Below, one piece after another: positions 13,259-57,042 of a stretch of 64,000 nt of DNA (positions are counted from its first letter, which is position 1; every line of letters begins with the position of its first letter). Origin of the DNA: Gammaproteobacteria bacterium (GTDB taxonomy: Bacteria; Pseudomonadota; Gammaproteobacteria; 21-64-14). The DNA is taken from the NCBI GenBank assembly GCA_027013145.1, contig JALUXX010000016.1, positions 22,983-86,982 of the forward strand, given 5' to 3'. The notes beneath the pieces are model-generated. The model had not been told where the DNA came from. It did not search any database and worked only from the letters and a program-made list of their open reading frames with translations. A program made the translations under genes and the position numbers.

Positions 13259-13259
13259 T

Positions 13260-26522: not shown

Positions 26523-26525
26523 CGA

Positions 26526-36021: not shown

Positions 36022-36030
36022 GTCGCCGGG

Positions 36031-36696: not shown

Positions 36697-36766
36697 GGTG
36701 CGCGGGAGAGGCGCTTCGGGAGACGGTCAACGCGGTTCTGTCATGAGTCTGACAGTGGAGGCGGAT

Positions 36767-37495
36767 ATGTCTTTTCACAGGGTCTGTATCGTCTGGCGGG
36801 GGGCGGTTGCGGCCGTCATGGTGTTCGGCATGGCCGGTTGCGCGACCGCGAGCCGACCGACGGTCGACAACTCGTACACCAGTCACGAACTGGCAAGCCT
36901 GCCGCCGCTGCGGGCGCGGCCGAAGACGGTGACCATCTATCGGTTCACCACCAGTGTCGACGAGGTGTCGGCGCGGGCGGCCACCGACATGTTCACGACG
37001 GCGCTGATCAAGTCTCACCGGTTCGCCGTACTCGAGCGACAGCGGCTCAGTGAGGGTGTGTTGCGCGAGAAACAGATGAACTCCCAGGGCATGACCACCG
37101 GAAACGTCGGTCGCGCCACCCTGGCCGGCGCCGACTACATCTTTTACGGGACGGTCAGCGAAGCCAACGCGGATGCGTCGGATACGGGCGTGGGCGCGAC
37201 TCTCCGCGGGCTCGGTGTGGAGGGCAGCGGGCAGAAGGCGGTGATCGCGGTCGATGTGCGGGTCGTCGATGCGCATACCGGCGCCGTTCTCGACGCGGTC
37301 GACGTGCGCCGCCCGGTGACGCAGGGTGGTGTCGGCGTATCCGGGGTCGGGGCGTTCGTCCAGAGCTTCACGCACACCGATCTCCAGGGGGCCGACGTCT
37401 CGCTCCACAAGGCGCACAAGGAGGGTGTGGACCGCGCGCTGCGCGAGTGCATCGAAGAGGCCGTCTATCAGCTCGCGAGGCGGTTCTCCAATTGA
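36767..37495 (+). CDS. CsgG-family outer-membrane lipoprotein (curli-type secretion channel family)
   Basis: GGAGG RBS. Lipobox (VFGMAGC). CsgG-like segments (TIYRFTTSVDEV, FTTALIKSHRFAVLERQRL, ADYIFYGTVSE, AVIAVDVRVVDAHTGAVL). Confidence 0.65.
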   Translation: MSFHRVCIVWRGAVAAVMVFGMAGCATASRPTVDNSYTSHELASLPPLRARPKTVTIYRFTTSVDEVSARAATDMFTTALIKSHRFAVLERQRLSEGVLREKQMNSQGMTTGNVGRATLAGADYIFYGTVSEANADASDTGVGATLRGLGVEGSGQKAVIAVDVRVVDAHTGAVLDAVDVRRPVTQGGVGVSGVGAFVQSFTHTDLQGADVSLHKAHKEGVDRALRECIEEAVYQLARRFSN

Positions 37496-37500
37496 TCGCC

Positions 37501-38685: not shown

Positions 38686-39730
38686 AACCTGGAGCACTGC
38701 GGTTCTCGTGCTGGTGTTGGCGGTGGCCGCGGACCCGTTGTGTGCGGGCCCGCTCGATCGCGGCCCGATGGCGCCGCGCGTCAATCCGGCGACCAATGAC
38801 ATGCTGCGTGTGCCCGGCGTGGTCGGTATGGACCGGCAGGGTGCGCTCGCGACGCTCGAGCAGGCCGGCCTGAACCCGCGGATCCACGAGCTGCGCAAGG
38901 TCACGAAACGCTATGCCGGCCGCGAGGGTACGGTGGTGCGCCAGTTACCGCTTCCGGGCGGTATGGCGATGTTGGGGTCCTCGGTGAGCATCACAGTGTA
39001 TGACCCCGGCGGCAGTGAGGGCGGCGTTGGTGCGGGCGGCCCCCCCGCTCAGCCGCCGTCTTATCCCGACAACGGCGGGCCCGGCTACGATGGCTCCGAC
39101 TACGGCGGTTACGACACCGGCGGGGCGCCGCCGTACGGGTCCGGGTCCGGCGGCGTCGATAGCGGTGGCGCCGGCGATGCGGGAGCGGTTGGTGGTGGAG
39201 ACGCGGGACCGCCGTTGCCGGGTGGATGGAGCGGTCCGAGCGCGCCGGCGGCCGGGGCCGGTGAAGGTCCCGCCCCCGCAGACGCGGGCGGGGCACCGGC
39301 CCCTGGACCCGCCACCGGCAACCTCCCGCTGAAGGCCCCCGCACCGTTGCCGGTACCCTCATCCCCGCCGTCGCAACCCCTCCCGGCCGGTCCGCTTCCG
39401 GTGCCCAAGCCGGTCGCGGTGCCGTCGACGCCCGCGCCCGCGTTGCACGCGCCGATCCCCGAGCCGAAGGCGCCGGTGGGCGGAACCGGCGCACGCCCGA
39501 AGCCTTCCCTGCGGCCGCCGCCGGAGCGCCGGTTGCCGCCTCCGCGACCGCAGCCCCCGGCGCCGGTCGTGACGCCCGCGCCGGTTCCGGTATCGCCGCA
39601 TATTCCGAAGCCCGTTGTGCCGATCCCGCCGGACGGGTCCGGCACGGGTGCTGCGCCGGTTCCACGGCCGGCCTTGCCGAGACGGAAAGAACCCCGCCGC
39701 CTGTCGGCCCCGCCCGAAGGCGTTCCGTAG
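38672..39730 (+). CDS. Secreted protein with one PASTA-like domain and a ~230-aa Pro/Gly/Ala-rich tail
   Basis: Signal peptide. PASTA-like module (VPGVVGMDRQGALATLEQAGLNPRIHELRK...GTVVRQLPLPGGMAMLGSSVSITV) followed by low-complexity PxxP-type repeats. Confidence 0.5.
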   Translation: MRVIETWSTAVLVLVLAVAADPLCAGPLDRGPMAPRVNPATNDMLRVPGVVGMDRQGALATLEQAGLNPRIHELRKVTKRYAGREGTVVRQLPLPGGMAMLGSSVSITVYDPGGSEGGVGAGGPPAQPPSYPDNGGPGYDGSDYGGYDTGGAPPYGSGSGGVDSGGAGDAGAVGGGDAGPPLPGGWSGPSAPAAGAGEGPAPADAGGAPAPGPATGNLPLKAPAPLPVPSSPPSQPLPAGPLPVPKPVAVPSTPAPALHAPIPEPKAPVGGTGARPKPSLRPPPERRLPPPRPQPPAPVVTPAPVPVSPHIPKPVVPIPPDGSGTGAAPVPRPALPRRKEPRRLSAPPEGVP

Positions 39731-39784
39731 CCGGGCGGCGTGGGTATCCACGGGGTCGTAGACAACTGCAAAGAGGGGATCGTC

Positions 39785-40516
39785 ATGGAAAACAAGCAGC
39801 ACGGCGTCACCGCAACTTCAAAGGGCAACCGGCCGCACGCTTCCGCGCCGACCGGGATCGTTGCGACCTTCGTCGCCGTCGTAACCCGGCCGGCGGAGTT
39901 CTTTTCCGCAATGCCCCGGACGGGCGGCTACGGTCAACCGCTGATCTTCATGGTCGTCATGGGCGTCGCGGGCGGGCTCATACGTGCCGTGCTCGGCATG
40001 CTCGGTCTCCTCACCGCGGGATCCACGGCCACGGCGCTGACCGGAATCATCCTCGCGCCGGTCCTGATCCTGATCTTCGGCTTCATCGGTGCAGCGATCC
40101 TGTTCATCATCTGGAAGATGATGGGTTCGCAGCGGGACTTCGAGACCGCATACCGGTGCGTTGCATACGGCAGCGCGATTTCGCCTTTGACGCAATTCCT
40201 TATGCTGATACCCTATCTGGGCATCGTCTTGGCCCTCGGATGGTGGGCGTTCATCCTCGTGGCCGCCAGCACCCAGGTTCACGATGTGGGGCGGAGTGTC
40301 GCGATCACAGTCTTCGGCGGGATCGCCGCGGTGCTGGCCCTGGCGGGTATCGGTATGCAGTTCACGGCTCAGCGGATGGTGAATTCGCTGACCAGGACGC
40401 AGCAGCAACTGCAACTCGATCAGACCCGGGATCCGGCCAAGGCCGCACAGGATCTTGGCAAGCTGCTCCAGCAGATGCAGAAGGCGTCCGGGCAGGGAGG
40501 CAGCGCGGGGCGCTGA
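39785..40516 (+). CDS. Yip1-domain (DUF1282-like) integral membrane protein
   Basis: GAGGGG RBS. Five TM helices in the Yip1-like arrangement. Conserved Gly-rich TM segments. Confidence 0.55.
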   Translation: MENKQHGVTATSKGNRPHASAPTGIVATFVAVVTRPAEFFSAMPRTGGYGQPLIFMVVMGVAGGLIRAVLGMLGLLTAGSTATALTGIILAPVLILIFGFIGAAILFIIWKMMGSQRDFETAYRCVAYGSAISPLTQFLMLIPYLGIVLALGWWAFILVAASTQVHDVGRSVAITVFGGIAAVLALAGIGMQFTAQRMVNSLTRTQQQLQLDQTRDPAKAAQDLGKLLQQMQKASGQGGSAGR

Positions 40517-44136: not shown

Positions 44137-46152
44137 TTGCGAATCTGTAAGCCGGATGTAAGCCCAGCCGTTTCATTATCGTTCCCGACATCGGAACCAT
44201 CGTCGGGAGGGGGGGTGGCCAGCAGCGCCACGACATGGACCACGCCGGGCGGGGCGGAGGCGCCGGGGGCGCCCCGCTACGGGCTGCAGGTCAAGCTCGG
44301 CCTCAGCGTGCTCGTCTCGACGCTGCTATCGGCGTTCATGATCGCCGGCAGCGTGTACCAGTTCGGTCGCGACCGGGTCGACCGTGCCTATGTCGCCGAG
44401 TCGGAGGCGATGGTGCAGGCGGCGAGCCTCGCGTTTTCCCAGGCGCTCGGGCGCCGGGATTTCGTGCTGCTCGACGCCCTGGTCCACGAGCTTCAGAGCC
44501 GCCGTAGACTTCGCATCCAGCAGGCCTACGTCCTCGATCCCACCGGGCGGGTCGTCGCCCACTCGATCGGCTCCGAGTACGGCAAGCACTACCCGGTCCC
44601 TGCGCTGTTGCGGGCGCGGCATCCCTCGCGCCTGTCGCAGGTCGTTTCCTCGACCGGGCCGACCTTCAAGGTCGTGAGCCTGCTGCAAACCCAGGGCCAT
44701 ACCCTCGGCGCCCTCGTGGTTCGTTTCGACGCCGCCGAGCTGGAGCAACGGCTGCGCTCGGAGGTCGTCTGGGTGCTCGAGACCACGCTCCCCATTCTGC
44801 TGTTGTCGGGAATCATCCTGCTGCTGCTCGGGCGCGGAATGACGCGGCGCCTTCAGACCCTTCGCACCCGCATCCGCGCGGTCGGGCGCGGCGAACGACC
44901 CGAACCCGTCCCGGTCCTGGGGAACGACGAGGTCGCGCAGCTTTCCCGGGACTTCAATCAGATGCAGAAAGACCTTGAGGCCCTCCAAGAAAAGGACCGC
45001 GATGCGACGGAGACCATCCGGGGGCTCAATCGCGAACTCACGACCCAGCTTCGCACCGTCGAGCGCCTGAAGGAACAGCTCGCGGAGGAGAATTCCGACC
45101 TGCGCGAGCAGCTCAGGAGCATGGCCGGGGACGCCGAATTCCTCGGGGCATCCGCTCCCGTGCGAAAGCTTCTGGAACAGGCGGCACAGACCGCGGGGCT
45201 CCCGATCAACGTCCTGATCACGGGGGAAAGCGGCACGGGCAAGGAACTCCTCGCGAGCTATATCCACCGGCGCAGCGGGAGGGAGTCGGGACCGTTCGTG
45301 AAGATCAACTGCGCCGCGCTGCCGGTCAATCTGGTCGAGAGCGAACTGTTCGGCCATGAAAAAGGCGCTTTTACCGGTGCGGTTTCGCAGCGGGTGGGAA
45401 AGTTCCAACTCGCCCACGGCGGGACGCTGCTGCTCGACGAGGTCGGGGAGTTGCCTCCCGAGTCGCAGTCCAAACTGCTGCGTGCCCTGCAGCAGGGAGA
45501 GATTCAGCGGGTGGGCGGCAACAAGCCGATCGTGGTCGACGTTCGCGTGATCGCAGCGACGAACCGCGATCTGGCCGAGGACGTGAGGCGGGGCACCTTC
45601 CGGGAGGATCTCTATTACCGGCTCAAGGTCATCGAGCTTCGCTGTCCCGCGCTGCGCGAGCGCATCGATGATCTGCCCATCCTCGCGCAGCATTTCATCG
45701 AACAGTTCGGCCGAAAGCTCGGGCGCAGTGTCGTCGGGATCTCGCCCAGCGCATTGCGCCGGCTCGGCCGCTACCACTGGCCCGGGAACGTCCGCGAGTT
45801 GGAGCACGCCGTGGCCCGTGCGGTCGCCCTGAGCGGGACCCGGGTCCTCGGGCCGGAAGACTTCGATTTCCTGCCCGTCTCCGGGCCGAGCGGCGGCGGC
45901 CGCGAGGCCGGCGGCGGCGGAATCGAAGCGCTCGCCCGCGCGTGCGGGCTCCGTGAGGAGAATCTGGGGGAGGCGCCGTGGGCGCGCATCATGGCGGCCT
46001 GCGAGCGCGTCTGTCTGACCGCCGCCCTCGATCGAAACCGAAATCAAAAAGACGCCGCGGCGATGCTGGGCATCACGCCGACCAAGATCCATCGCCTGAT
46101 CCGGAAACACCGCCTCAAGGGCGAGCCGCAGGGATCGGCCCCGGGAGGCTGA
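44137..46152 (+). CDS. Membrane-anchored sigma-54-dependent transcriptional activator (bEBP): periplasmic sensor between two TM helices, HAMP, AAA+ sigma-54 interaction domain, Fis-type HTH; no receiver domain
   Basis: TM1 (LSVLVSTLLSAFMIAGSVY), ~170-aa extracytoplasmic region, TM2 (VLETTLPILLLSGIILLLLG), HAMP plus coiled coil. AAA+ motifs: Walker A (GESGTGKE), the sigma-54 contact motif GAFTGA (EKGAFTGAVS), Walker B (LLLDEVGEL) and RVIAATNRDL. C-terminal HTH (QKDAAAMLGITPTKIHRLIRK). An alternative GTG start near 44215 follows GGAGGG. Confidence 0.8.
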   Translation: MRICKPDVSPAVSLSFPTSEPSSGGGVASSATTWTTPGGAEAPGAPRYGLQVKLGLSVLVSTLLSAFMIAGSVYQFGRDRVDRAYVAESEAMVQAASLAFSQALGRRDFVLLDALVHELQSRRRLRIQQAYVLDPTGRVVAHSIGSEYGKHYPVPALLRARHPSRLSQVVSSTGPTFKVVSLLQTQGHTLGALVVRFDAAELEQRLRSEVVWVLETTLPILLLSGIILLLLGRGMTRRLQTLRTRIRAVGRGERPEPVPVLGNDEVAQLSRDFNQMQKDLEALQEKDRDATETIRGLNRELTTQLRTVERLKEQLAEENSDLREQLRSMAGDAEFLGASAPVRKLLEQAAQTAGLPINVLITGESGTGKELLASYIHRRSGRESGPFVKINCAALPVNLVESELFGHEKGAFTGAVSQRVGKFQLAHGGTLLLDEVGELPPESQSKLLRALQQGEIQRVGGNKPIVVDVRVIAATNRDLAEDVRRGTFREDLYYRLKVIELRCPALRERIDDLPILAQHFIEQFGRKLGRSVVGISPSALRRLGRYHWPGNVRELEHAVARAVALSGTRVLGPEDFDFLPVSGPSGGGREAGGGGIEALARACGLREENLGEAPWARIMAACERVCLTAALDRNRNQKDAAAMLGITPTKIHRLIRKHRLKGEPQGSAPGG

Positions 46153-46396: not shown

Positions 46397-46412
46397 TGGC
46401 CCGGCTCTTGCT
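46397..46412 (+). promoter_or_regulatory. Candidate sigma-54 promoter TGGCCC-N5-TTGCT upstream of the OmpA-fusion gene
   Basis: GG and GC dinucleotides at the canonical 12-nt spacing, ~185 nt upstream of ATG 46595. The -24 element is imperfect (TGGCCC instead of TGGCAC). Confidence 0.4.
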
Positions 46413-46594: not shown

Positions 46595-47545
46595 ATGACT
46601 CCACATCCGTTGCGAAAAACCGTCGGTTTGCTGGGCTTGCTCTGGGCCCTTGCCCTCGGTCCCGGTGCCGCGCAGGCCGCCGTCCAGACCTTCATCAAGC
46701 CGTATCCCGGCTCCACCGTACACAGCACCTGGACGCACAAGTTTGATCGGGTGATGCTGCCGGCGGGCAAGGTGCATTTCGATAACAAGACGCAAACCGA
46801 TGTTGTGGCCAAAACGATCGAGGTCAAAGGGCGGCTGACCTACGTGGATTACGAAACGCCGGAAGACCGCGGCGGCTTCGAGGTGCTGGAGAACTATAAG
46901 CAGGGGCTTGCCCGGGCGGGCTTCAAGATCCTGTTTTCCTGTTATGCCGCGGCCTGCAGCAAGGGAGGCGATGTCGGCTATGTCCTCAACCGGGACCAGT
47001 TCGGAGACGACCCGCCACAGGTCGGCAGCGACCAGACCGGCTACCTGACCGCGAAGCTGGCGCGTCCCGAGGGTGACGTCTACGCCACCGTGATTGTGGA
47101 TGGGAACAATCACGCCACGGACGTGGCGATCGTCGAGGCCAAACCCATGCAGACGGGCATGGTGAAGGTCGACGCCAAGGCCTTGCTCAACGACATCGAC
47201 CGCACCGGCCACGCCGCCATCTACGGCATTTACTTCGACACCAACAAGGCCACGGTCAAGCCCGCGTCGAAACAGGCGCTGGTCGCGATCGCCAAGCTGC
47301 TCAAGACGCGCCCGAAACTCAAGCTCTACGTGGTCGGCCACACCGACAACGTCGGCACCTTCGACTACAACATGGGCCTGTCCAAACGACGTGCCGAAGC
47401 AGTGGTGGCCGTGCTGGTCAAGCAATACGGCATTGCCTCCGGTCGCCTGCGCGCTGCCGGCGTGGGCCCGCTGGCGCCGGTGCTGGCCAACACCACCGAG
47501 GCGGGGCGCGCCAGGAACCGGCGCGTGGAACTGGTGGCGCAATGA
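46595..47545 (+). CDS. OmpA-family protein: N-terminal DUF4892-like domain carrying a YPGS motif, fused to a C-terminal OmpA/MotB peptidoglycan-binding domain
   Basis: Signal peptide. N-terminal domain (FIKPYPGSTVHSTW...). C-terminal OmpA-like motifs (IYFDTNKATVKP, YVVGHTDNVGTFDYNMGLSKRRAEAV, RNRRVELV). Confidence 0.75.
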   Translation: MTPHPLRKTVGLLGLLWALALGPGAAQAAVQTFIKPYPGSTVHSTWTHKFDRVMLPAGKVHFDNKTQTDVVAKTIEVKGRLTYVDYETPEDRGGFEVLENYKQGLARAGFKILFSCYAAACSKGGDVGYVLNRDQFGDDPPQVGSDQTGYLTAKLARPEGDVYATVIVDGNNHATDVAIVEAKPMQTGMVKVDAKALLNDIDRTGHAAIYGIYFDTNKATVKPASKQALVAIAKLLKTRPKLKLYVVGHTDNVGTFDYNMGLSKRRAEAVVAVLVKQYGIASGRLRAAGVGPLAPVLANTTEAGRARNRRVELVAQ

Positions 47546-47592
47546 GCGGTTCAAAAAACATCAATGTATCAGAAGTCTTGGGGTACTACATC

Positions 47593-48102
47593 ATGAATAA
47601 AACAGGTATATCGCTTGCATCGTTCGTGTTGCTCTGCCTGCTGGGCGCGCAGACCGCAAACGCGGCGCAGCCCATCGCCCCCCGGGTGCCGGTAACCAAA
47701 GAGGGCAAGCTGATCAATTACGACTGGAAAGGCACGTGCCCACCGCAAAGCGAGGTCGGTGTGCCGGCCTATCCGGGCAGCCTGTGCACCAAAGCGGCAA
47801 TGTTCAACAAGCACTCCGGGTTTGTCGAGCTGATATCCGGCACGAGCGCCGCGGCGGTCGTGTCCTGGTATTCCGGCCATCTCTCCGGCTGGCGGCATAC
47901 GAAGGTTATGAGCGGCGACGTCATCTTTGTGCCGCCCGGCGTTGACCTGAACCGTGTGTATCCCGGCTATAGCGACACCAATATCACCATACATAAGCTG
48001 ACGGCCGGCGGCGTGAAACTGAAGAAAATGATTTACGCGTTCCAGGGCACGCCGAAGACACTGATCACTATTGACTATGAAGTCAATGGAGGCATGCGAT
48101 GA
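47593..48102 (+). CDS. Small secreted protein of the YPGS...WY paralog family (169 aa)
   Basis: Signal peptide. Motif AYPGSLC ... VVSWYSGHLSGWRH shared with the next gene and with 51306 and 51836. Confidence 0.5.
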   Translation: MNKTGISLASFVLLCLLGAQTANAAQPIAPRVPVTKEGKLINYDWKGTCPPQSEVGVPAYPGSLCTKAAMFNKHSGFVELISGTSAAAVVSWYSGHLSGWRHTKVMSGDVIFVPPGVDLNRVYPGYSDTNITIHKLTAGGVKLKKMIYAFQGTPKTLITIDYEVNGGMR

Positions 48103-48611
48103 AAGCCTATGCGGTCTATGCAATTGCAACGGCTTTGGCGGCTCTAAACGGGGCGCCGGTTGTGGCTGCGCCGGTCGCGCCGCATCCTCCGCTTAGCAAG
48201 CTCGGAAAGCAGATGCTGGCGGCGCAGCATGGCAAGGCTAGAAAAGTTTGTCCCGATGCGGCTTACGTCGCCATGCCGATCTATCCGGGTTCTTTGTGTG
48301 TTTCAAACACCACGATTTCGAGCAATGGAAGGAAGGATCCGCTGGAAGTGCTCGTGCTCGTCAGCAATGATGCCGTGGCAAAAGTTCGCGGCTGGTATAG
48401 AAAACACCTCAAGGGCTGGAAGTACAACTCCGAGTTTGGAAACTACGCACCTCCTGGCTGGAGTATCCGGACAATTATGTCCATGCCACAGGTCGAGATC
48501 GAGAAAGCCGACGACACCAGCCTCTGGATGTACAAGATCGCCTATGACTTGAAAGGGGTGCATACCCTCATCAACATCTACTACAAACCGCATCGGGGCG
48601 CGAGGCCGTGA
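48099..48611 (+). CDS. Small secreted protein of the YPGS...WY paralog family (170 aa)
   Basis: Signal peptide. IYPGSLC ... VRGWYRKHLKGWKY. Start overlaps the stop of the preceding paralog. Confidence 0.5.
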   Translation: MKAYAVYAIATALAALNGAPVVAAPVAPHPPLSKLGKQMLAAQHGKARKVCPDAAYVAMPIYPGSLCVSNTTISSNGRKDPLEVLVLVSNDAVAKVRGWYRKHLKGWKYNSEFGNYAPPGWSIRTIMSMPQVEIEKADDTSLWMYKIAYDLKGVHTLINIYYKPHRGARP

Positions 48612-48972
48612 AATCTGTTGGCTGCGCCACGACTGTCAATCGTCCGCCGGCCAGTTTGTCCGACGGAGGCGATTGAAACAGGGGCGCGATGAAGGAACTT
48701 GCCGCAATCGTTATGGCCGTGGCATTCACTGCCATGCCGATCGACGCGGCGACCGCGGGGTGCCGGACGGGGGCTGGGTGCCGGACACGATGAAGGGCTT
48801 GCGCACAAGCCTCCCGCGCCTGCCTGCGCCGCCGCCGGAACCGGGCGACCCGGGCGGTCGCTCAACGCCCTGGGGCGCGCGGCTGCGCGTCGCGCCCTTG
48901 CGCGGGTGGGAGGGACGCTGGATGTCGCCCTGCGAGGACGTCCGGTGCCTGGCGGTAACCGAGGAGAAAGAC

Positions 48973-49317
48973 ATGAAGCGATGCACGATTGCATGGAAGA
49001 TGGCCGCGGGCCTTTTTGCACTCGCCCTGGCGGGCATGCTGCCTAGTTTCGCCTCGGGGCGCCAGCTTTGGGCGGGAGGACGGAACGTCGATCCCGCCAC
49101 GCCGGCCTGCGCCGTGGAGAAGGCGGCCGCGAAACAAGCGCTCTTCCAATGGGACATCTGCATGGGTGGGCAGACCAAGCCGCCCGTCATGGGCGGCAAC
49201 GCGACCGTCTACTACCTCGAGCGGCGCAGGCGATGTGCGCCCAAATACCGTATCTTCACCCGCGCCGAGAACCGCTTGAATGCCTGCCAGGAGCGCCGGA
49301 AGGGCCACCCGCGCTGA
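48973..49317 (+). CDS. Small Cys-containing secreted protein (114 aa)
   Basis: GGAGAAAG RBS. Signal peptide (MAAGLFALALAGMLPSFASG). Five Cys residues. Confidence 0.4.
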   Translation: MKRCTIAWKMAAGLFALALAGMLPSFASGRQLWAGGRNVDPATPACAVEKAAAKQALFQWDICMGGQTKPPVMGGNATVYYLERRRRCAPKYRIFTRAENRLNACQERRKGHPR

Positions 49318-49382
49318 GCCTGGGTGACGATCGAAAGGAACGGCGGACACGCGTGGCCGGCGAAAGACATAGGAGAGGCGTC

Positions 49383-51212
49383 ATGAACGTCCATGCACAA
49401 CACCCGATCCGTGCGGCGGCGCTCGCCATGTTGTGGGTCGCACTGCTCATCCCACCGTCGCAGGCAGCGATGAACCGTGGCCGGCCGATCAACTGGGGCG
49501 GAGGGATCGGCCGGGACGCACGGGCGAATGGACCGCATTTCAGCCAATGGCGTCCGCTGTGGCGTTTCGTTTGGTCGGCAACGAGGCGCAACTACGATAT
49601 GCGCCCCGCGCCGAGTGTGGCCGGTTCGCCGAACTGCCCGGCGGATCTCGGCATCGGTCCGATCGTCGAGCGTATCATCGGCACGACCTATAGCCACCGC
49701 TACGGGGATGCGGTCCATGCGCTGGGTCAGTTTCAGAGGCGTCTGCTTTGCCTCGACCCCGACGGGGCGCACGGAGTGGACTTCGCGCTCTCCGCGTTCA
49801 ACGCCCTGGCCGTGCGCGACCTGCATGGGCGCGAGCGGGATGAGGCGGTGATCGGTTCGTTCAATGCGGGCCTGCTCGCCTTCGATACGGTTCAATACAG
49901 CGGACGCAGTTGGTGGCTGCCCGTCATGTACCACGACTACAACACCGAGCGGTCGCTGATCCGCCGCTTCCCGGGTACCGCCCTGGGGCTGTGGCTGTAC
50001 GACGTTCGGGACGGGCGGCTCCACCAGCTCACGTTCGGCCGCGCAAACCCGGCGGTCTACCGGGGCCTGATGCGCGCATTCGCCCATCCGGGCGTATTCG
50101 GGCAGGGCGACTGCAGCCTGCTCGGCATGGCGGGCACGGGATTCGTCTGCGGCGGGGGCGGCGGTGATAACCGCTGGATGGGCGGCGGTGGCGGCGGTGC
50201 CGGTGGCGGCGGCGGGAGCGGCATGGGCGGCGGCTCGGGCGCTGGCCTGAGCTGCATGGTGTCGGCCGCGATGAACACCGGCAGTCTCGGCACACTTTCG
50301 TGCATGGTGCGCGCCGGTGGTCTGGGCGGGACGCGTATACCCGTGACCGCCACCTCCCACCTGCAGATTCAGGGCGTTTTCGACACACAATGCGCCCAAA
50401 ACGACGGGTCGGGTAAGGCGCCGAGACTGCCCGATTACGACAAGACGAAGGCCGGGAGCGAGCACGCGGATGCCAAGGAAAGCCACTGGTACGATGCCGT
50501 TCTCAATTTCATTCATGACTTGAATTTCGTCAACGGCGGCTCCGGAGGGGGTGGTTCCTCGTCCTCGTCGGGTAGCCAGAGCAAGCCGCCGCCGGAACCG
50601 CAGCCGGGTCAGGTTGGGTATGGGCAAATGAAGGCAGCCAGGGATGCATACTTCGACAGGCAGCGGGCCAAGCTCAACAAGCACGGATTGAAGAAATTCA
50701 AGAACAAGGGCGGCCATGCGGTGAATGGCGGGGTTGCCGGCGGGGGCAGCGGCTGCGGCGGCAATGGGACCAACGCCGCGGCGCGGGTGGCGGCCCTGTT
50801 TGCCTGTACGGGAACCGGCAGCGCCCGCGGCGGGATGAGCGCATCGGGGCCGCGCTTTCCGGGTGCCGGCGGCGGCGGGCCGCTCTCGATGCCCGGGCCG
50901 GCCGCTGGCGGGGTGGGCGCGCCGAGCGGGCTGCTCTCCTGTGCCATGCAGGGTGGAAGACTCGTGCGTGCCGGTGTCCATGACAGGCGCTGTCAGCAGA
51001 CCGATTGCGCGCCCGGCGCAAGCTGCTCCTGCAACGGCTCGGGCGGCCCTGGCCAGGCCGCGGCCATCGGAGCCGCCGGGCGTCGGGCGGTCAGCAGCCC
51101 CAACAACGCCAACTGGGGCGCGATCGATTTTGGGCGCAATCATTATGGCAACGGCGGCGGTTTTACCGGCCCGAAGATTCCGGGGCACGGCGGGGGGCCG
51201 AGCAAGCGGTAA
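49383..51212 (+). CDS. Glycine-rich, Cys-containing secreted protein (609 aa)
   Basis: AGGAGAGG RBS. Signal peptide. Long poly-Gly/Ser tracts (GGGGGDNRWMGGGGGGAGGGGGSGMGGGSGAG). 19 Cys residues. Confidence 0.55.
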   Translation: MNVHAQHPIRAAALAMLWVALLIPPSQAAMNRGRPINWGGGIGRDARANGPHFSQWRPLWRFVWSATRRNYDMRPAPSVAGSPNCPADLGIGPIVERIIGTTYSHRYGDAVHALGQFQRRLLCLDPDGAHGVDFALSAFNALAVRDLHGRERDEAVIGSFNAGLLAFDTVQYSGRSWWLPVMYHDYNTERSLIRRFPGTALGLWLYDVRDGRLHQLTFGRANPAVYRGLMRAFAHPGVFGQGDCSLLGMAGTGFVCGGGGGDNRWMGGGGGGAGGGGGSGMGGGSGAGLSCMVSAAMNTGSLGTLSCMVRAGGLGGTRIPVTATSHLQIQGVFDTQCAQNDGSGKAPRLPDYDKTKAGSEHADAKESHWYDAVLNFIHDLNFVNGGSGGGGSSSSSGSQSKPPPEPQPGQVGYGQMKAARDAYFDRQRAKLNKHGLKKFKNKGGHAVNGGVAGGGSGCGGNGTNAAARVAALFACTGTGSARGGMSASGPRFPGAGGGGPLSMPGPAAGGVGAPSGLLSCAMQGGRLVRAGVHDRRCQQTDCAPGASCSCNGSGGPGQAAAIGAAGRRAVSSPNNANWGAIDFGRNHYGNGGGFTGPKIPGHGGGPSKR

Positions 51213-51305
51213 GGATGGACAGGTGTCCCGGCGGCGATAGAACGACTGCCGGGGAGATCCCTCACAGTACCAACAAACGTCGATATTCATGAAGGAGCAT
51301 CCACA

Positions 51306-51779
51306 ATGAATCGAAAGACATTCGTCCTGGGCCTGGCCCTGACGGTCGTCACGACCCCAGCCCCGGCCGCCGGCATCCCGCTTCCGGGCCACCGGCCCAA
51401 GAACCTGTCTTCCGACGCGTTTCAATTTGTTCTGCAGCAGCTTCGGCGAATCAAGCAGTTCGATCTGAAAACGCTGGGCATTCCATTGGCAAAAAGCCTG
51501 CGTCTTGCGGGTGCTTTCGGAGATCCAGCGCATCCCTTTGGGCTGGATGCGGTGTCGCCGAAGGACATGGAGACCATGCTGGCCTGGTATCACGAACGGC
51601 TCCCGGATTGGAAGGTGTCGTTCCACTTCAAAGGTAAAACTGCCACCCTGACGTCGCCCCGGTCCGCGGGAACAAAAGTCACCATCCTGAATTGCTCAGG
51701 CGGTACCTATCAACTGTACCCATGCGGTTCCGTAGTGCGGTTCTACAACACGCCGCCCGTTCCTCCCGCAGCACCATGA
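51306..51779 (+). CDS. Small secreted protein, distant member of the WY-motif paralog family (157 aa)
   Basis: AAGGAG RBS. Signal peptide. METMLAWYHERLPDWKV resembles the shared motif. Confidence 0.45.
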   Translation: MNRKTFVLGLALTVVTTPAPAAGIPLPGHRPKNLSSDAFQFVLQQLRRIKQFDLKTLGIPLAKSLRLAGAFGDPAHPFGLDAVSPKDMETMLAWYHERLPDWKVSFHFKGKTATLTSPRSAGTKVTILNCSGGTYQLYPCGSVVRFYNTPPVPPAAP

Positions 51780-51835
51780 AGCACAAGCCGTGAGCCATGG
51801 CCATGAGAACCCGCAATACTCCAGGCGAATCAGGT

Positions 51836-52939
51836 ATGAATCCGATGTCGGGAAACACAAAGCGGTTGGGCGTGGCCATGCTGCGCTGGGTACTGGCCGG
51901 ACCGGCATTGGGATTGTCGGGCCAGGCACTCGCCGGTGCGGTGCCGATCTACCCGGGTGCCGCGCTCGATCCGGTGGCAAGTGCGCAGGAGAGCCACCTC
52001 CGCGAACACGCTGTGAAGGTTTATATTTCGCATGATTCGCTACAGCAGGTCCGGGCTTGGTATCAGCCCAGACTGGCGAAGCAGAGCATTGCAGGATGCA
52101 CATTCAAAGATCCGAAGGAAGGCTGCGGCGCATTCAAACAGACTTGCGAATCGATCGCCATGGCCGGGCGGTGGGTGCAGTGCACGGACGGGATCGTGCT
52201 GAAATGGAACTACATCCCACCCGGCGGCAGCATGGTGGACGCTTTCAATGCCGGCGTACACCTCGTCGGGTGGCGCATCCCGCCCAAGTCCAAGAAGCCC
52301 GCGGCTGCGCACGCCACGCCGCAGAAACCGCAGCGGCTGACGGGACGGGCCGCCGAGACCATGGCGCAGCTCGACGCCATGTCGGCGCAGCTGCAGGCGG
52401 CAACCAAGCAGGCGATGCAACAAGCGGATGCGGAAGGAAAAAGTCTTGGGCTGACGGACACCGTCCGATTCGCAGGCATTCCGGACATGCCGTTCAAGGG
52501 ACTCAAGGACGAAGTGCTCGCCGGTCGTCACCGCCAGCAGGAACTCGAGGCGCTTTACCGAAAGTATCGGTGGCTGACGGCGGCCTTCTATCCGATGAAA
52601 AGGACCGTCAACGGCGTCGAAGACTACGCGCACTGGCTGATCGCCAGGACCGAAGCCCGTATTCATAAGCCACAACAAGCAGCCATCGAGGCTGCGGGCC
52701 AACACGGCGAAGATCCGGCGCAAGCGCAAGCGCGGATGCAGCAATTGATTCGGCAGGGCCGGATGGATGAGGCACGCAAGCTGGGCGAACAAATGGCGGT
52801 CGCCATGCAGGGGGCGGAGCGAAGCGGTAACGTCGTGACGCAACTCCAGTCCAGAGATCACTGGCAGGAATGGGTGGCGGTGATCAAGAAGCTGGCCGCT
52901 CACGCCTACAAGACAAAAATCATTATCGACACGTTCTGA
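51836..52939 (+). CDS. Secreted protein with an N-terminal YPGA...WY family domain and a C-terminal coiled-coil-like region (~367 aa)
   Basis: Signal peptide. PIYPGAALDP ... VRAWYQPRLAKQ. C-terminal Gln/Ala-rich helical region. An alternative start at 51797 is possible. Confidence 0.5.
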   Translation: MNPMSGNTKRLGVAMLRWVLAGPALGLSGQALAGAVPIYPGAALDPVASAQESHLREHAVKVYISHDSLQQVRAWYQPRLAKQSIAGCTFKDPKEGCGAFKQTCESIAMAGRWVQCTDGIVLKWNYIPPGGSMVDAFNAGVHLVGWRIPPKSKKPAAAHATPQKPQRLTGRAAETMAQLDAMSAQLQAATKQAMQQADAEGKSLGLTDTVRFAGIPDMPFKGLKDEVLAGRHRQQELEALYRKYRWLTAAFYPMKRTVNGVEDYAHWLIARTEARIHKPQQAAIEAAGQHGEDPAQAQARMQQLIRQGRMDEARKLGEQMAVAMQGAERSGNVVTQLQSRDHWQEWVAVIKKLAAHAYKTKIIIDTF

Positions 52940-52962: not shown

Positions 52963-53412
52963 ATGAGAACCGTCCCGATGACCGTCGCCGCCCTCTGGCT
53001 GTTCGCCGTGGTCGTGCCGTCCGCCGCCAATGCCGCAGCACCCAGGCTCAAGCCCGGCCTGTGGGAGACTACCGCCACCAGCGTCATGGTCGGCACACCC
53101 TTCTCGCCGCCGCCGCAGACCGGCAAGACTTGCCTGACCGAGAAGCAGATCGCCCACCCCTGGGCCGCGCTCCAGGCCAACAAGAACCAGCACTGTAGGT
53201 TCACCCACGTGGAGGTCCACGCGCATTCGGCGAGCTGGCGCATGGAGTGCGACGGGCAGGGCGGGCACATGATCGGAACGGGCACCAGCAAGTACCCCGA
53301 TCCGACGCACATGCAGGGGATGACCCATATGACCGTGAACGCCGGCGGCGAGCAGATGAAGATCGACGTCACCACCGTCGGGCACTGGGTCCGCGCCTCC
53401 TGCCCGAAGTGA
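52963..53412 (+). CDS. Small secreted protein, DUF3617-like (149 aa)
   Basis: AGGAGG RBS. Signal peptide. KPGLWETTAT motif. Four Cys residues. Confidence 0.5.
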   Translation: MRTVPMTVAALWLFAVVVPSAANAAAPRLKPGLWETTATSVMVGTPFSPPPQTGKTCLTEKQIAHPWAALQANKNQHCRFTHVEVHAHSASWRMECDGQGGHMIGTGTSKYPDPTHMQGMTHMTVNAGGEQMKIDVTTVGHWVRASCPK

Positions 53413-53451: not shown

Positions 53452-56184
53452 ATGCCGCCCTCGCCCCGCCTGCACCGGTACTGCACCCTGCTCGTGGCGC
53501 TGTCGACGCTGCCGGCCCCGGCGGGGTCGGTGCAGGCCGATCCCGGCCCGAACTCTCCGTTCGCCGGCATGAGCCAGCGCCGGATGTGGTGCCAGGTACT
53601 CCAACAGGGCATCAGCAGTCCCGCGCGCCAGGCGCATGCGCGCGAGGAGTGTTTCGGCAAGCTGGCGCGCTTCGACAAGGTCGAGACCTGGCAGGGGCGC
53701 CTGACGCTCACCCGGCACTACATCTGCGCCGACCAAAGCGGGACCAAGACCGTGCGTGCGCGCTTTGCCCTCAAGCGCACGCCCTACCTCAGCAACGCCG
53801 AGGTCGCGGGCTCGATCAAGGCCCAGGTCCCTAAAGCGGCGAACGTCTTTCAACAGGCCATGGCGCGCATGCCCGGCGCGAAAGTCGTCATCCGGCGAGA
53901 CCCGACGACCGGCTACACGGAGGGCCCCAACGAGCTGAGCTGGTTCCTGACCGCCGGCACGCTGGACGCGTCCATCGGCACCCGCGGCAGCGACGGCGAC
54001 ACCGCGCACAGCGAAAACGGCAGCGGTTCGGCGGCCATCTCACGCCAGGCGCGCTTGATCTTCGACCTCGAGCAGGGCACCTGGAGCCTGGAGCTGCCGC
54101 CGCTGGACGAGAAGGGCTTTCCGGTCACCAGGGTCACGAGCTCGCCCGAGGGCAGCACGACCGAACACGACCGCGAATCGATGGACGACGTCAGCTCGCT
54201 CGACGGCTATACCGACGATCGGGGCCTGAACAAGTTGCCAGGCACCGGCCTGCAACTGGTCGGACATGTCACGACGCAGGAGGGCGACTGCGAGCGCGAC
54301 GAACTGAGCTGGCGCCTCGCGCCGGCGGCCGACTGCGCCTCGTACAAATACCTGACGCTCGGGATAGAAGACCCCGTTGCCGGCACCCGATGGATCTTCG
54401 ACAGCCATGACGCGCCCGCCGGGCTCGGTCCCGTCAGACTCGACGGGGGCGCTGAATACGCCCAGGACAAGGCGGTCGTGAACATAGACGACATGGTGCA
54501 ATGGACGCCGCCCCGAATCCCCGGTACCACGCTCCACGCAAAGCCCGTCGACCTCTTCGGCGCCTCGCTCACCCTTTCGTATAGCGGCATGCCGGCCACC
54601 AACAGCGACTTCGGCAAGGCCGTTGTGCGATTAGAGATTCCCGACCTGCCGAACTGCGTTGCACCGGAGAGCCGGACCGTGCGACTGTTCTTCGCACGTG
54701 ACGGGCACGGCAATCCCGAGGGCAAGCGCGAGCCGAACTGGTTCTACTACTGGATGCAGAGCAAGGCGGGGGCCGGTCATACCGAAAAAGATGTGGTCTT
54801 CGAGACGGGTTGCGACCCGACAAAACTCGGCTATTTCTACATGCACTATCCCTTCTCCGCGCGCGTGCATATCTGTTCGGCCGCAAAGGGTGTGACAGCC
54901 TCGAGGGACGTCTACGGAGAAGTGGCCTTTGGAATCGATCAGTTCGCTTTGACCATTCGCCACGAGTTCGTGCACAAGATGCTCTACGACGAGGGCCTGC
55001 GGGCCTTCGATGCGTCGTGGTACCACAAGTACGGATTCTCATATTTCAAGCGCGAGGATTATCTTGCCGCGAAGGCCAAGCTCGATCCCGATCGCGACTA
55101 CCTCACCTCCGCCGAAGAACGCAAATACGGCCTCTCTCCCTGGATAAAGGATACACACTGCACCGGCCAGGACGACAACGAATACCTCGCTTACAAGCTC
55201 TCGACCAAACACTGGAAGCTCGGTTCCGCGGATCGACAGGATTGGTCCTGCCCGGGGCGTCAGGGACGCGCCCCCGAGAACGGCCAACCCGACGGGGACT
55301 GCGCCCTGGTGCCTCCCTCGCCCGGCGGGGGCCACTGGCCCGGGTGCGCGGCGCCTCGTGTACGAACGGGATCGCGGAGGTCGAACCCGCGGGAAGCCTC
55401 ACCGGGTGATGAATTGCATTCGGTGCGCGGGGTGGGGATGGCGGACGCCGTGCCCGCGCCGAGCCCGCGTACCACGGACGTGCCAGGGGCGTCTTCCAAG
55501 GCCAATCACACCGGGAACGCCACCGCCCCGGCCGCGGGCGGTGCCGCGGGCATTGCGACGCGATTGAAGAGCCCCGATCCGATGACCCGCTTGCGGGCCT
55601 TGCGCGACTTGGTGACCGCCGGCGGTGGGCCGGCGCCCGGCACGTCAGCGAAACAGGTCCTGGGTGCGCTGGCCTCGGAAGTGAACGGTCCGCCCGCGCC
55701 TCAGCCCATCCGCAACGGCTACCTGCCGCAGGGGGCCTGGCGCCGTGTGCAATACGCACGGCTCAGTGCCCGCTTACCCGAGAAGGCGCTGAGCGTGCTC
55801 TATCGCAGGCATCTCGAGGCCGGCGGCCCGACGAAGAGCTGGCTCGCCATCACGCTGGGCGATGCCGGCGACGCGCGCCTTACGGGTGAGCTGATCGCGC
55901 TGGTGCATGAGGCGCCCGACTGGCCGACCCGCTGGGCCGCGGCCGAGGCTCTGGGTGCCATCGGTTCCCCGGTCGCGGTGCGTGCGCTGGAGGACGTGAT
56001 GCAACATGATGCCGCGACTACGACGATGCAGTCGGACGCAGCCGCTCCGGTCACGTTTTACCCCGTGCGTGAGCAGGCTGCGGGTGCGCTCTTGCGCCTG
56101 GGTATCGGGGTTCACCTCGTCGGACCGGATACCTACGTCGTCGACACGGCCGCGCCGGACCCGCAATCGTCGGTTGTACGTTGA
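53452..56184 (+). CDS. Large secreted protein (910 aa) with an HExxH zinc-metallopeptidase-like motif and C-terminal HEAT/PBS-lyase-type repeats
   Basis: Signal peptide (LLVALSTLPAPAGSVQA). HEFVH at IRHEFVHKMLYDEG. C-terminal HEAT-like repeats (LGDAGDARLTGELIALVHEAPDWPTRWAAAEALGAIGSPVAVRALEDVM). Confidence 0.6.
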   Translation: MPPSPRLHRYCTLLVALSTLPAPAGSVQADPGPNSPFAGMSQRRMWCQVLQQGISSPARQAHAREECFGKLARFDKVETWQGRLTLTRHYICADQSGTKTVRARFALKRTPYLSNAEVAGSIKAQVPKAANVFQQAMARMPGAKVVIRRDPTTGYTEGPNELSWFLTAGTLDASIGTRGSDGDTAHSENGSGSAAISRQARLIFDLEQGTWSLELPPLDEKGFPVTRVTSSPEGSTTEHDRESMDDVSSLDGYTDDRGLNKLPGTGLQLVGHVTTQEGDCERDELSWRLAPAADCASYKYLTLGIEDPVAGTRWIFDSHDAPAGLGPVRLDGGAEYAQDKAVVNIDDMVQWTPPRIPGTTLHAKPVDLFGASLTLSYSGMPATNSDFGKAVVRLEIPDLPNCVAPESRTVRLFFARDGHGNPEGKREPNWFYYWMQSKAGAGHTEKDVVFETGCDPTKLGYFYMHYPFSARVHICSAAKGVTASRDVYGEVAFGIDQFALTIRHEFVHKMLYDEGLRAFDASWYHKYGFSYFKREDYLAAKAKLDPDRDYLTSAEERKYGLSPWIKDTHCTGQDDNEYLAYKLSTKHWKLGSADRQDWSCPGRQGRAPENGQPDGDCALVPPSPGGGHWPGCAAPRVRTGSRRSNPREASPGDELHSVRGVGMADAVPAPSPRTTDVPGASSKANHTGNATAPAAGGAAGIATRLKSPDPMTRLRALRDLVTAGGGPAPGTSAKQVLGALASEVNGPPAPQPIRNGYLPQGAWRRVQYARLSARLPEKALSVLYRRHLEAGGPTKSWLAITLGDAGDARLTGELIALVHEAPDWPTRWAAAEALGAIGSPVAVRALEDVMQHDAATTTMQSDAAAPVTFYPVREQAAGALLRLGIGVHLVGPDTYVVDTAAPDPQSSVVR

Positions 56185-57042
56185 CGATGCGGCCTGGTCC
56201 GATGCATCCGCCCGCCGCTCAGCGGGCCCGCCGTCGGGGGCGGTTGGGATGGCGGGCGGGCCACGCGTTTGTACCGGACGCGCGGCGACTTCGGGAAGGA
56301 GACCTTATCGGAGCGGGCGTCGCGTAAGGGCATGGGGCGCTGCGCTCGGCTGAGAAGGGCGAAATACATCAGAACGCCATTCAAACGAACGTAACGCAAT
56401 ATTGAACCCCGCTCTTGCGATGCTGTGACGGATGGCCCGGTTTGAGCCCGCCGGTGCATTCACCGTCCGCGGCACGATGGCGCAATTGATGTCGTAGTCG
56501 ACCGCACCCGTATGTCACGTCGTCGTCGCGTCCGTCGCCGCGGCCCGGTCATTGCGGTACGCCGATCGAGGCGCGGCAACGGGTCGTCGCGGCTGGCGGT
56601 GCCGTCCCGCCACCGACTGAGAGATTGCAGGCCACGTAGCGCCCGCGGCGGCGCGCATGCATTTCAAAACCGAAATTGTTACGGATCCGCATGCAGGCCG
56701 AATCGGATGCGAACCGCTCGGGCCTGCATACCCCATTGTAATACCGCTATGTTTTCTCAGCGCCCGCGTTTGGCATGGAGATTGCCGTATCCGGCGCAAG
56801 GCGAGGGGCGTCGTGTCCCGAGAAGGACGCGGAACATCGAGCTTGAGGTTGGACTTGCCGCCCGCACGGCCAGCTCGCGCGGGTCTCCGGAAGGATGCCG
56901 GAGGCGTCCACCGGAGAGGTCCGCGTGTATCGCCCCGGAGGCCGGCCGCGGCCCGGAGTCACGGTGCTGAACGGGTCACAAAATCGACCACGTCGCCATC
57001 ACGGATTTTGCATTGTATGTCTTTTCTCGGGAGAAATGACCA

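What the first reader, a model, noticed from the sequence alone, without database searches (positions are those of the whole stretch)
46595..52939. Local expansion of a small periplasmic domain family (YPGS...WY motif): five paralogs, one fused to an OmpA peptidoglycan-binding domain
The genes at 46595, 47593, 48099, 51306 and 51836 all encode signal-peptide proteins sharing a roughly 100-aa module with (I/A/P)YPG(S/A)(L/T/A) followed ~25 residues later by (V/L)x(x)WYxxxLxxW. Examples: KPYPGSTV; AYPGSLC...VSWYSGHLSGWRH; IYPGSLC...VRGWYRKHLKGWKY; IYPGAAL...VRAWYQPRLAKQ; LAWYHERLPDWKV.

In 46595 the module is N-terminal to a canonical OmpA domain, implying that the free-standing paralogs are periplasmic partners or competitors of an envelope-tethered version. 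The 51836 copy adds a long coiled-coil tail.

Two of the small paralogs are translationally coupled.

This looks like an envelope-remodelling or contact module of unknown function rather than scattered hypotheticals.
Basis: seen in the sequence. Interest (0 to 1): 0.55.

Follow-up and report, generated by a model that had tools for sequence, protein, structure and literature searches.

The report
Unnamed periplasmic family beside DUF4892-OmpA
Four of the five flagged genes encode exported proteins of one small family that no Pfam or NCBIfam model matched, and in several bacterial lineages this family sits next to a cell-wall-anchored DUF4892-OmpA protein; the fifth gene is that anchor protein, which is not a demonstrable paralog, and the function of the set is unknown.

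Summary
The five genes exist at the stated coordinates, and each protein starts with a Sec-type signal peptide. B (47593) and C (48099) are clear paralogs, and their ATGA overlap confirms translational coupling.

A profile built from about 105 relatives of B and C picks out only four of the window's 567 six-frame ORFs:
- C, 173 bits
- B, 125 bits
- E, 21.8 bits
- D, 16.1 bits
- the next best ORF scores 5 bits

hhalign gives D 94.5% probability over 120 columns and E 91.9% over 46 columns. D lacks the YPG motif. No family member hits any Pfam or NCBIfam model.

A (46595) is DUF4892 (borderline, 28.5 vs 28.8 bits) plus a canonical OmpA domain. No sequence method links it to the others (hhalign 0.7-3.7%).

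Family members lie beside DUF4892 proteins in at least six other loci. Tandem arrays reach eight copies.

Verdict: a real, previously unmodelled periplasmic family in a conserved envelope gene cluster. It is moderately interesting.

The parts
46397..46412 (+). Candidate sigma-54 type -24/-12 element, TGGCCCGGCTCTTGCT. It lies in the intergenic region between the sigma-54 activator gene and gene A, 183 nt upstream of the A start codon.
   Evidence: one mismatch to TGGCAC-N5-TTGCW. The window-wide count (17) is not above the shuffle expectation (20.6), so only position and strand make it a candidate. Sequence shown.
46595..47545 (+). Gene A, 316 aa. Signal peptide covers residues 1-28, the DUF4892-type domain about 29-205, and the canonical OmpA peptidoglycan-binding domain 213-309.
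   Evidence: OmpA 74.8 bits; DUF4892 28.5 bits against a cutoff of 28.8; close homologs carry precomputed PF16234; weak match to PA1624 (6td9) that includes the Cys-x4-Cys pair. Read from the sequence: the GHTD and NxxLSxxRA OmpA motifs are present.
47593..48102 (+). Gene B, 169 aa. Exported member of the YPG-WY family, with a conserved Cys pair (CPP...YPGSLC).
   Evidence: 125 bits to the family HMM; the start at 47593 agrees with orthologs (L014 82%, L011 71%). Gene callers used the upstream ATG at 47542, which overlaps the stop codon of A.
48099..48611 (+). Gene C, 170 aa. Exported member of the same family. Its start overlaps the stop of B (ATGA).
   Evidence: overlap and GGAGG; 173 bits. 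AF2 model with pLDDT 91.9 and pTM 0.83, topology beta-beta-alpha-beta-beta-beta-alpha-beta after an N-terminal helix.
51306..51779 (+). Gene D, 157 aa. Divergent full-length family member that keeps the WY helix but has lost the YPG motif.
   Evidence: hhalign Prob 94.5%, E 8e-8, 120 columns; 16.1 bits, E 2e-4; orthologs in L035 (56%) and L014 (54%).
51836..52939 (+). Gene E, 367 aa. After the signal peptide comes an N-terminal part with the YPGA...WY segment (residues 35-80 match the family) and four conserved Cys. A conserved helical region of about 190 aa follows, then a terminal strand AHAYKTKIIID that resembles the family's last strand.
   Evidence: Prob 91.9%, E 7e-7; 21.8 bits; alignment of 9 homologs; model with pLDDT 64.8; the helices and terminal strand are predicted, but packing could not be checked.
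39740..40516 (+). Yip1-domain membrane protein. Homologs are found in the same loci as A homologs: directly upstream of the A ortholog in L035, and about 5.7 kb upstream across nine genes in L007.
   Evidence: Yip1, E 4e-12. L007 Yip1, 40% identical. L035 Yip1, 38% identical.
44215..46152 (+). Sigma-54-dependent activator with a HAMP domain, directly upstream of A. Candidate regulator of the cluster.
   Evidence: precomputed Pfam HAMP, Sigma54_activat, HTH_8. The regulatory link is an inference from position only.
52963..53412 (+). Gene H, an exported DUF3617 protein. Conserved directly downstream of E in another locus.
   Evidence: DUF3617, E 6e-17; the order in L036 is E (49%), H (45%), I (42%), then a family member.
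53452..56184 (+). Gene I, 910 aa. Protein with a conserved HEFVH (HExxH) motif and C-terminal HEAT repeats. Conserved partner of E and H.
   Evidence: HEAT_2, E 1e-10; 42% identical homolog in L036 with the HEFVH region conserved.

Best explanation
B, C, D and the N-terminal part of E belong to one family of Sec-exported, soluble periplasmic alpha/beta domains that no Pfam or NCBIfam model matched. The family's signature is YPG(S/A) before strand 1, a helix reading WYxxxLxGW, and a last strand reading KTxIxIxY. The B/C subgroup also has a disulfide-forming Cys pair.

No candidate catalytic residue is conserved. The nearly invariant positions are Pro, Tyr, Leu and Ile (plus the start Met), which look like core residues. 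The domain is therefore most likely a binding or adaptor module, not an enzyme.

A is a different protein: a DUF4892 domain tethered to peptidoglycan through a canonical OmpA domain.

The small family and DUF4892 proteins are encoded side by side in several lineages, usually with an E-type protein, and also with a Yip1 membrane protein or with a DUF3617 protein plus a large HExxH/HEAT protein. The best reading is that they act together as one envelope-associated assembly: A supplies the cell-wall anchor, and the soluble family members supply interchangeable periplasmic binding subunits whose number varies between organisms.

What is shown:
- family membership of B-E
- export signals
- B-C coupling
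- the architecture of A
- the conserved neighbourhood

What is inferred:
- physical interaction with A
- a non-enzymatic binding role
- sigma-54 control
For: **Family**
- BLASTP B-C, E 2e-13.
- An exhaustive profile search finds 108 representative clusters at E<=1e-3, mostly 160-180 aa.
- The HMM separates C, B, E and D from all other window ORFs.
- hhalign gives D 94.5% and E 91.9%.
- No Pfam or NCBIfam hit and no consistent Pfam hit for any of 60 members.

**Fold**
- Model of C has pLDDT 91.9.
- PA1624's N-domain is described as Mog1p/PsbP-like (PMC7716261).

**Neighbourhood**
- L007: family member, AIM24, then DUF4892-OmpA (58% to A).
- L009: family member immediately upstream of a stand-alone DUF4892 protein.
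- L014: A (85%), B (82%), D (54%). L015 (Zetaproteobacteria): E-like, family, family, DUF4892. L019 also has a family member beside DUF4892.
- L035: Yip1, A (80%), D (56%), E (60%).
- L036: E, H, I, family member.
- L011: eight tandem members, mostly with 4-bp overlaps, followed by two E-like genes.

**Architecture of A**.

**Conserved positions in the family**: the nearly invariant positions are M1 (start Met), P52, P60, Y62, P63, L87, Y100, L104 and I158; none is an obvious catalytic residue.
Against: - No experiment or complex prediction supports a physical A-family interaction.
- Only 4 of 21 genome loci with DUF4892-OmpA homologs have a detectable family member within 10 kb. Some family members occur without DUF4892 nearby: L011 and L012.
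- The sigma-54 element is a single one-mismatch consensus match in a window where such matches are no more frequent than chance.
- The E model is of low confidence, and its fold search was uninformative.
Confidence: 0.55

Rival explanations
1. The small proteins are periplasmic immunity or inhibitor proteins. On this reading, divergent tandem copies each neutralise a variant of a secreted enzyme or toxin, for example the neighbouring HExxH protein I or an incoming effector. Copy-number variation would reflect an arms race.
For: - Tandem, translationally coupled arrays of divergent exported paralogs with 0-8 copies.
- No conserved catalytic residues.
- A large HExxH protein is conserved in the cluster, and another HExxH protein sits in L007.
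- B, C and D have lower GC3 than their neighbours.
- Tandem immunity-gene arrays are a known pattern for T6SS lipase and amidase immunity proteins (own knowledge, not tested here).
Against: - The Pfam and NCBIfam scans of the annotated genes found no T6SS, CDI, Rhs or other toxin-delivery genes in the window.
- No PADLOC hit.
- The paralogs are old and have 1:1 orthologs at 54-82% identity, rather than fast-turnover orphan copies.
- The conserved partner is a peptidoglycan-anchored DUF4892 protein, not a recognisable toxin.
Confidence: 0.15
2. All five, including A's N-domain, are true but very divergent homologs. They would form one superfamily of the Mog1p/PsbP/DcrB type, so that A is an anchored version of the free modules.
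For: - A low-stringency hhalign of a 24-sequence DUF4892 profile against the 105-sequence family profile aligns RY(P/E)GS with PaYPGA and EV.RNYE..L with kV.aWYk..L in the same register. It places DUF4892's extra segment where PA1624 has its beta insertion.
- The two families are genomically linked.
Against: - That alignment has P 0.034 and probability 1.5%.
- Other hhalign runs give 0.7% and 3.7%.
- HMM searches in both directions find nothing.
Confidence: 0.25
3. The small proteins are periplasmic chaperones or adaptors for a CsgG-type outer-membrane secretion channel encoded 9 kb upstream. They would escort the glycine-rich secreted protein G, as CsgE and CsgC do for curli subunits.
For: - A CsgG-family gene lies at 36698-37495 (E 2e-27).
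- In L014 the CsgG ortholog (57%) lies in the same short locus as A, B, D and an H-like gene.
- G is a 609-aa exported Gly/Ser-rich protein with no family match.
- A homolog of the CsgG neighbour 36031-36696 lies next to a family member in L012.
Against: - No CsgG homolog appears within the sequenced flanks of L007, L035, L036 or L011, although they carry the family and/or A and E.
- G has no homolog in any related locus examined.
Confidence: 0.05

Closest known systems
DUF4892 (PF16234); solved example PA1624 of Pseudomonas aeruginosa (PDB 6td9, PMC7716261)
   Same: - A's N-domain matches the Pfam model at E 1.3e-6.
- A aligns weakly to PA1624, including the Cys-x4-Cys disulfide pair.
- PA1624 is also periplasmic and pairs the domain with an OmpA-like domain.
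   Different: - A scores 0.3 bits below Pfam's gathering cutoff.
- A carries a canonical OmpA domain, whereas PA1624's is degenerate and lacks the peptidoglycan-binding motifs.
- B-E do not match the DUF4892 model at all.
- B-E are about 40 residues shorter in the core, lacking the insertion between strands 1 and 2.
Mog1p/PsbP-like bacterial proteins: DcrB (DUF1795, 6e8a) and the T6SS Eag chaperones SciW (6xrb) and PA0094 (1tu1)
   Different: - DcrB is a lipoprotein, whereas B-E have no lipobox.
- Eag chaperones are cytoplasmic, whereas these proteins carry signal peptides.
SRPBCC / START / Bet v 1-like ligand-binding domains (e.g. 3uid, 3fo5, 2r55)
   Different: - There is no long C-terminal grip helix in the C model's secondary-structure string.
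- Foldseek scores are non-significant.
- No sequence relationship is detectable.
OmpA-family peptidoglycan anchors with a partner-binding N-domain (Pal, YfiB, YiaD)
   Same: A's C-terminal domain matches these models at 73-112 bits and carries the canonical motifs. The 'works like' analogy is a cell-wall-tethered protein holding or sequestering soluble periplasmic partners.
   Different: - A falls below every equivalog cutoff.
- A has no lipobox.
- A has a DUF4892 N-domain that none of these proteins has.
- The analogy is an inference, not a test.

Membership tests
DUF4892 (PF16234) | Protein A reaches the Pfam gathering score (28.8 bits) | tested here: inconclusive
   A scores 28.5 bits, E 1.3e-6, covering residues 72-172 and model positions 47-145 of 183. 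Homolog P0004 (45% identical) and the 80% identical L035 ortholog carry precomputed PF16234 hits.
DUF4892 (PF16234) | Cys-x4-Cys disulfide after the helix-strand unit, as in PA1624 (C110-C115) | tested here: met
   A's LFSCYAAAC aligns with PA1624's LFWCERRDC. The paper reports the 110-115 disulfide. The pair is conserved in most of 24 homologs.
DUF4892 (PF16234) | Proteins B, C, D and E match the family model | tested here: not met
   No DUF4892 hit at E<=1. None of 60 family members hits it. A home-made DUF4892 HMM gives E>0.4 against all family members. hhalign gives 0.7-3.7%.
OmpA family (PF00691) | Match above the gathering score, and the canonical peptidoglycan-binding motifs | tested here: met
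   A residues 213-309 cover the full model at 74.8 bits against a cutoff of 27.2. GHTD and N-x-x-L-S-x-x-R-A are present in the sequence.
YPG-WY periplasmic family (defined here; no Pfam or NCBIfam match) | Significant match to the family profile built from relatives of B and C | tested here: met
   C 173, B 125, E 21.8 and D 16.1 bits, against 5 bits or less for all 563 other window ORFs. hhalign gives D 94.5% and E 91.9%. A is not matched.
YPG-WY periplasmic family (defined here; no Pfam or NCBIfam match) | YPG(S/A) motif before strand 1 and a WYxxxLxGW helix | tested here: inconclusive
   B, C and E have both motifs. D has only the helix. A has YPGS but an NY helix at twice the spacing.
Mog1p/PsbP-like fold | Structural match to solved members at a convincing score | tested here: inconclusive
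   [not shown]
Anti-phage defence or known immunity families (PADLOC) | Match to any model | tested here: not met
   No hit for B, C, D, E, F, G, H or I. Only A's OmpA domain hits the MotB-like ZorB models.

The most novel reading that the evidence does not exclude
The YPG-WY family, DUF4892-OmpA, the E-type protein, a Yip1 inner-membrane protein, DUF3617 and the HExxH/HEAT protein together form an undescribed trans-envelope machine. A variable set of divergent soluble modules would dock onto a homologous, wall-anchored DUF4892 module to sense or remodel the envelope, possibly under sigma-54 control.
Probability: 0.15. Interest if true: 0.6.

Novelty: new variant of a known kind. Interest (0 to 1): 0.35.

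Why it matters
- **A family no Pfam or NCBIfam model matched.** The finding defines a small exported protein family that matched no model in either library, and provides a high-confidence structural model for it.
- **A first functional handle on DUF4892.** The family is tied by gene neighbourhood to DUF4892, a domain with a crystal structure but no known function. Only two papers in the searched library mention DUF4892. This yields a testable partner hypothesis for DUF4892/PA1624-type proteins.
- **A conserved gene set to follow up.** It delineates an envelope gene set (Yip1, DUF4892-OmpA, D-type, E-type, DUF3617, HExxH/HEAT) that can be pursued in a cultivable carrier.
- **Limits.** It does not resolve any long-standing question by itself.

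Tried and rejected
1. **Word-based homolog searches.** Searches for C and for A's N-domain returned only 2 and 3 proteins. The exhaustive profile search was needed to find the family.
3. **afdb50 fold library.** It was not available.
5. **Profile search against PDB sequences.** The family profile gave only noise.
6. **Looking for G, F or the regulators in related loci.** No homologs were found, so they are not treated as core parts.
7. **Chance-motif explanation.** Rejected for B-E on profile statistics; it stands for A's YPGS.
8. **Defence-system reading.** Rejected by PADLOC.


Full report
**Checking the observation**

Each protein begins with a positively charged, then hydrophobic N-terminus that ends in an AxA-like site. 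None has a lipobox cysteine (sequences). No signal-peptide predictor was available, so export is read from the sequence and from its conservation in homologs.

B's stop and C's start overlap as ATGA, with GGAGG 8 nt upstream. The translational coupling is therefore real.

Gene callers on public copies of this contig start B at 47542, which overlaps A's stop. Orthologs support the 47593 start instead.

**Are the five related?**

BLASTP among the window proteins:

| Pair | Result |
|---|---|
| B-C | 28% identity over 129 aa, E 2e-13 |
| C-E | 32% over 47 aa, E 4e-4 in a tiny database |
| D vs B or C | E about 0.1-0.2 |
| A vs any other | nothing |

A word-indexed search found only one relative of C among 5.8 billion proteins. 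I therefore ran the exhaustive HMMER search with a profile of B, C and that relative. It found 108 representative clusters at E<=1e-3 and 27 at E<=1e-10, nearly all 160-180 aa.

An HMM of about 105 of these sequences was built without D or E and searched against all 567 six-frame ORFs of the window:

| ORF | Bits | E-value |
|---|---|---|
| C | 173 | |
| B | 125 | |
| E | 21.8 | 4e-6 |
| D | 16.1 | 2e-4 |
| next best | 5.0 | |

hhalign against a 60-sequence alignment of the family:
- D: 94.5% probability, E 8e-8, over 120 columns. D is a full-length but divergent member in which YPG has become LAK.
- E: 91.9% probability, E 7e-7, but only over residues 35-80.
- A: 0.7% as a single sequence, 3.7% as a 3-sequence profile.

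I also built a 24-sequence DUF4892 profile from loci fetched later. At low stringency, hhalign aligned RY(P/E)GS with PaYPGA and the two helices in register, but with P 0.034 and probability 1.5%. HMM searches in both directions found no cross-hits.

Four of the five are therefore demonstrably one family. A is not.

**What the proteins are**

A carries a full-length canonical OmpA domain (74.8 bits) and a DUF4892 match 0.3 bits under Pfam's cutoff. Close homologs carry the precomputed PF16234 label. A aligns weakly to the only solved DUF4892 protein, PA1624, including its Cys-x4-Cys disulfide.

B, C, D and E hit nothing in Pfam, NCBIfam or PADLOC. None of 60 family members hits any Pfam family consistently. 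No model in those libraries matches the family.

Within the B/C subgroup two cysteines are invariant (CPD... and YPGSxC), which fits a periplasmic disulfide. Across the wider family the nearly invariant residues, apart from the start Met, are Pro, Tyr, Leu and Ile. These are core positions, not an active site.

**Structure**

AlphaFold2 with the 60-sequence alignment gave a confident model of C (pLDDT 91.9, pTM 0.83). Its order of elements is: N-terminal helix, two strands, the WY helix, three strands, a short helix, and a final strand.

The PA1624 paper describes its N-domain as Mog1p/PsbP-like, with a beta insertion between strands 1 and 2. That is where A's extra 30 residues fall in my alignment.

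This is a suggestive, register-consistent resemblance. It does not prove homology.

The model of E was poor (pLDDT 64.8). It predicts a helical region of about 190 residues and a terminal strand, AHAYKTKIIID, that resembles the family's last strand KTxIxIxY. E may therefore be a family domain split by a large helical insertion, but I could not inspect the coordinates. The fold search returned only helical bundles.

**Genomic context elsewhere**

This is the most informative result.

- **L011 (related organism):** eight family genes lie head to tail, mostly with 4-bp overlaps, followed by two E-like genes.
- **L005 and L010:** three or more coupled copies each.
- **L007:** a family member, AIM24, a DUF4892-OmpA protein 58% identical to A, and a Yip1 protein 40% identical to the window's.
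- **L009:** a family member directly precedes a stand-alone DUF4892 protein.
- **Genome scan with the DUF4892 alignment:** 21 loci were returned. Family members lie within 10 kb in four of them: L014 (a Gammaproteobacteria MAG, with A 85%, B 82%, D 54%), L015 (Zetaproteobacteria, order E-like, family, family, DUF4892), L019 (Burkholderiaceae) and, weakly, L016 (Nitrospiria).
- **L035:** Yip1, A (80%), two unrelated genes, D (56%), E (60%).
- **L036:** E (49%), H/DUF3617 (45%), I (42%), then a family member.

The family is rare: 108 clusters at 50% identity among 1.84 billion representatives. Repeated adjacency to DUF4892 across phyla is hard to ascribe to chance, although I did not compute a formal odds ratio.

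B, C and D each have their own orthologs at 54-82% identity. The duplications are therefore old, and what varies is copy number (0 to 8).

**Regulation and surroundings**

Directly upstream of A lie a sigma-54 activator with a HAMP domain and a large AAA/BTAD regulator. A one-mismatch -24/-12 element sits at 46397-46412 on the correct strand, 183 nt before A. Such matches are no more common in the window than in shuffles, so it is only a candidate.

No sigma-70-like promoter or plus-strand terminator was found in 46.0-57.2 kb.

The host is a 68% G+C autotroph with an alpha-carboxysome operon. B, C and D have lower GC3 (0.66-0.74) than their neighbours (0.80-0.91).

**Mechanism**

I commit to the following, at about 0.55 overall.

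B, C, D and E's N-part are soluble periplasmic binding modules of one family. A is a peptidoglycan-anchored DUF4892 protein. They function together in a conserved envelope assembly, with A as the anchor and the small proteins as exchangeable partners.

Family membership, export signals, coupling, architecture and synteny are shown. Interaction, a non-enzymatic role and sigma-54 control are inferred.

The rivals are:
- immunity or inhibitor arrays (0.15)
- true deep homology of all five (0.25; compatible with the main model)
- chaperones for the nearby CsgG-type channel (0.05)

**Comparison and novelty**

A is an ordinary member of a recurrent DUF4892-OmpA architecture: 21 genome loci were found at once.

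The small family matched no Pfam or NCBIfam model, and its nearest solved structures are only fold-level neighbours. I rate it a new variant of a known kind, namely small periplasmic alpha/beta binding domains of the Mog1p/PsbP or START-like shape.

DUF4892 has almost no literature; two papers in the searched library mention it. The partner hypothesis is therefore useful but modest. Interest 0.35.

Noticed in passing
window 2785-18217: Complete-looking alpha-carboxysome and carbon-concentrating region: RuBisCO large chain, CsoS2, the CsoSCA carbonic anhydrase, a BMC shell protein, and a DabA/DabB-type inorganic carbon pump (DabA 14021-17137; proton-antiporter-like subunit 11576-13258). The host is a chemolithoautotroph.
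   Followed up: no
window 23620-28711: Two SAM methyltransferases lie in tandem next to an OpuA-type glycine-betaine ABC transporter (binding protein, permease, and an ATPase with CBS domains). This suggests compatible-solute synthesis and uptake, i.e. a salt-adapted organism.
   Followed up: no
window 34078-39730; L014 7483-9493; L012 3836-4456: A CsgG-family outer-membrane channel gene (36698-37495) is flanked by unannotated genes and a PASTA-domain protein. In L014 its ortholog (57%) and the following gene lie in the same short locus as the A, B and D orthologs. A homolog of 36031-36696 (40%) sits next to a family member in L012.
   Followed up: partly
window 53452-56184; L036 1732-4665: The 910-aa protein I has an HEFVH (HExxH) motif inside a strongly conserved block, YGE.A.GIDQF.LT..HEFVHK.LYD.GL..FDASWYHK, plus C-terminal HEAT repeats. 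It has no protease family match and may be an unclassified metallopeptidase. An unrelated 746-aa protein with HELGHAVGIRHH closes the L007 cluster.
   Followed up: partly
window 49383-51212 and 48973-49317: G is a 609-aa exported protein with long Gly/Ser runs and many Cys. F is a 114-aa exported protein. Neither has a family match or a homolog in any related locus examined, so they look like lineage-specific insertions between C and D.
   Followed up: partly
window 33955-33970 and 56771-56786: Two further plus-strand sigma-54-like -24/-12 matches (1 and 2 mismatches) lie just upstream of the first gene of the CsgG block (34078) and of the cadherin-like gene J (57043). This hints at a common regulon with the A promoter candidate, but the total number of matches is at chance level.
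   Followed up: no
L011 213-4442: An array of eight tandem family genes, six of the seven junctions being 4-bp overlaps, in a 5.9-kb metagenome contig. It includes orthologs of B (71%) and C (71%) and is followed by two E-like genes.
   Followed up: yes
L035 3713-4405, L014 5357-6127, L007 2119-3093: The D orthologs of L035 and L014, and an otherwise unrelated 324-aa protein of L007, share a C-terminal tail motif: V.KDAKDIG...V(D/E)EAHQ(S/T).KQG(I/V)Q. The window's D lacks it. Its function is unknown; it may be a docking or sorting peptide.
   Followed up: no
L014 56-3622: In the related MAG the cadherin-like J ortholog (53%) and the A ortholog (85%) lie in the same reading frame with no stop codon between them, although A keeps its own signal peptide. 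This could be chance, a fusion or an assembly issue.
   Followed up: no
window 47593-48611 and 51306-51779: B, C and D have G+C of 55-59% and GC3 of 0.66-0.74, against 0.80-0.91 GC3 for most neighbours. A is 80-85% identical to orthologs in genomes of only 52-57% G+C. Both observations are compatible with horizontal spread of the cluster.
   Followed up: no
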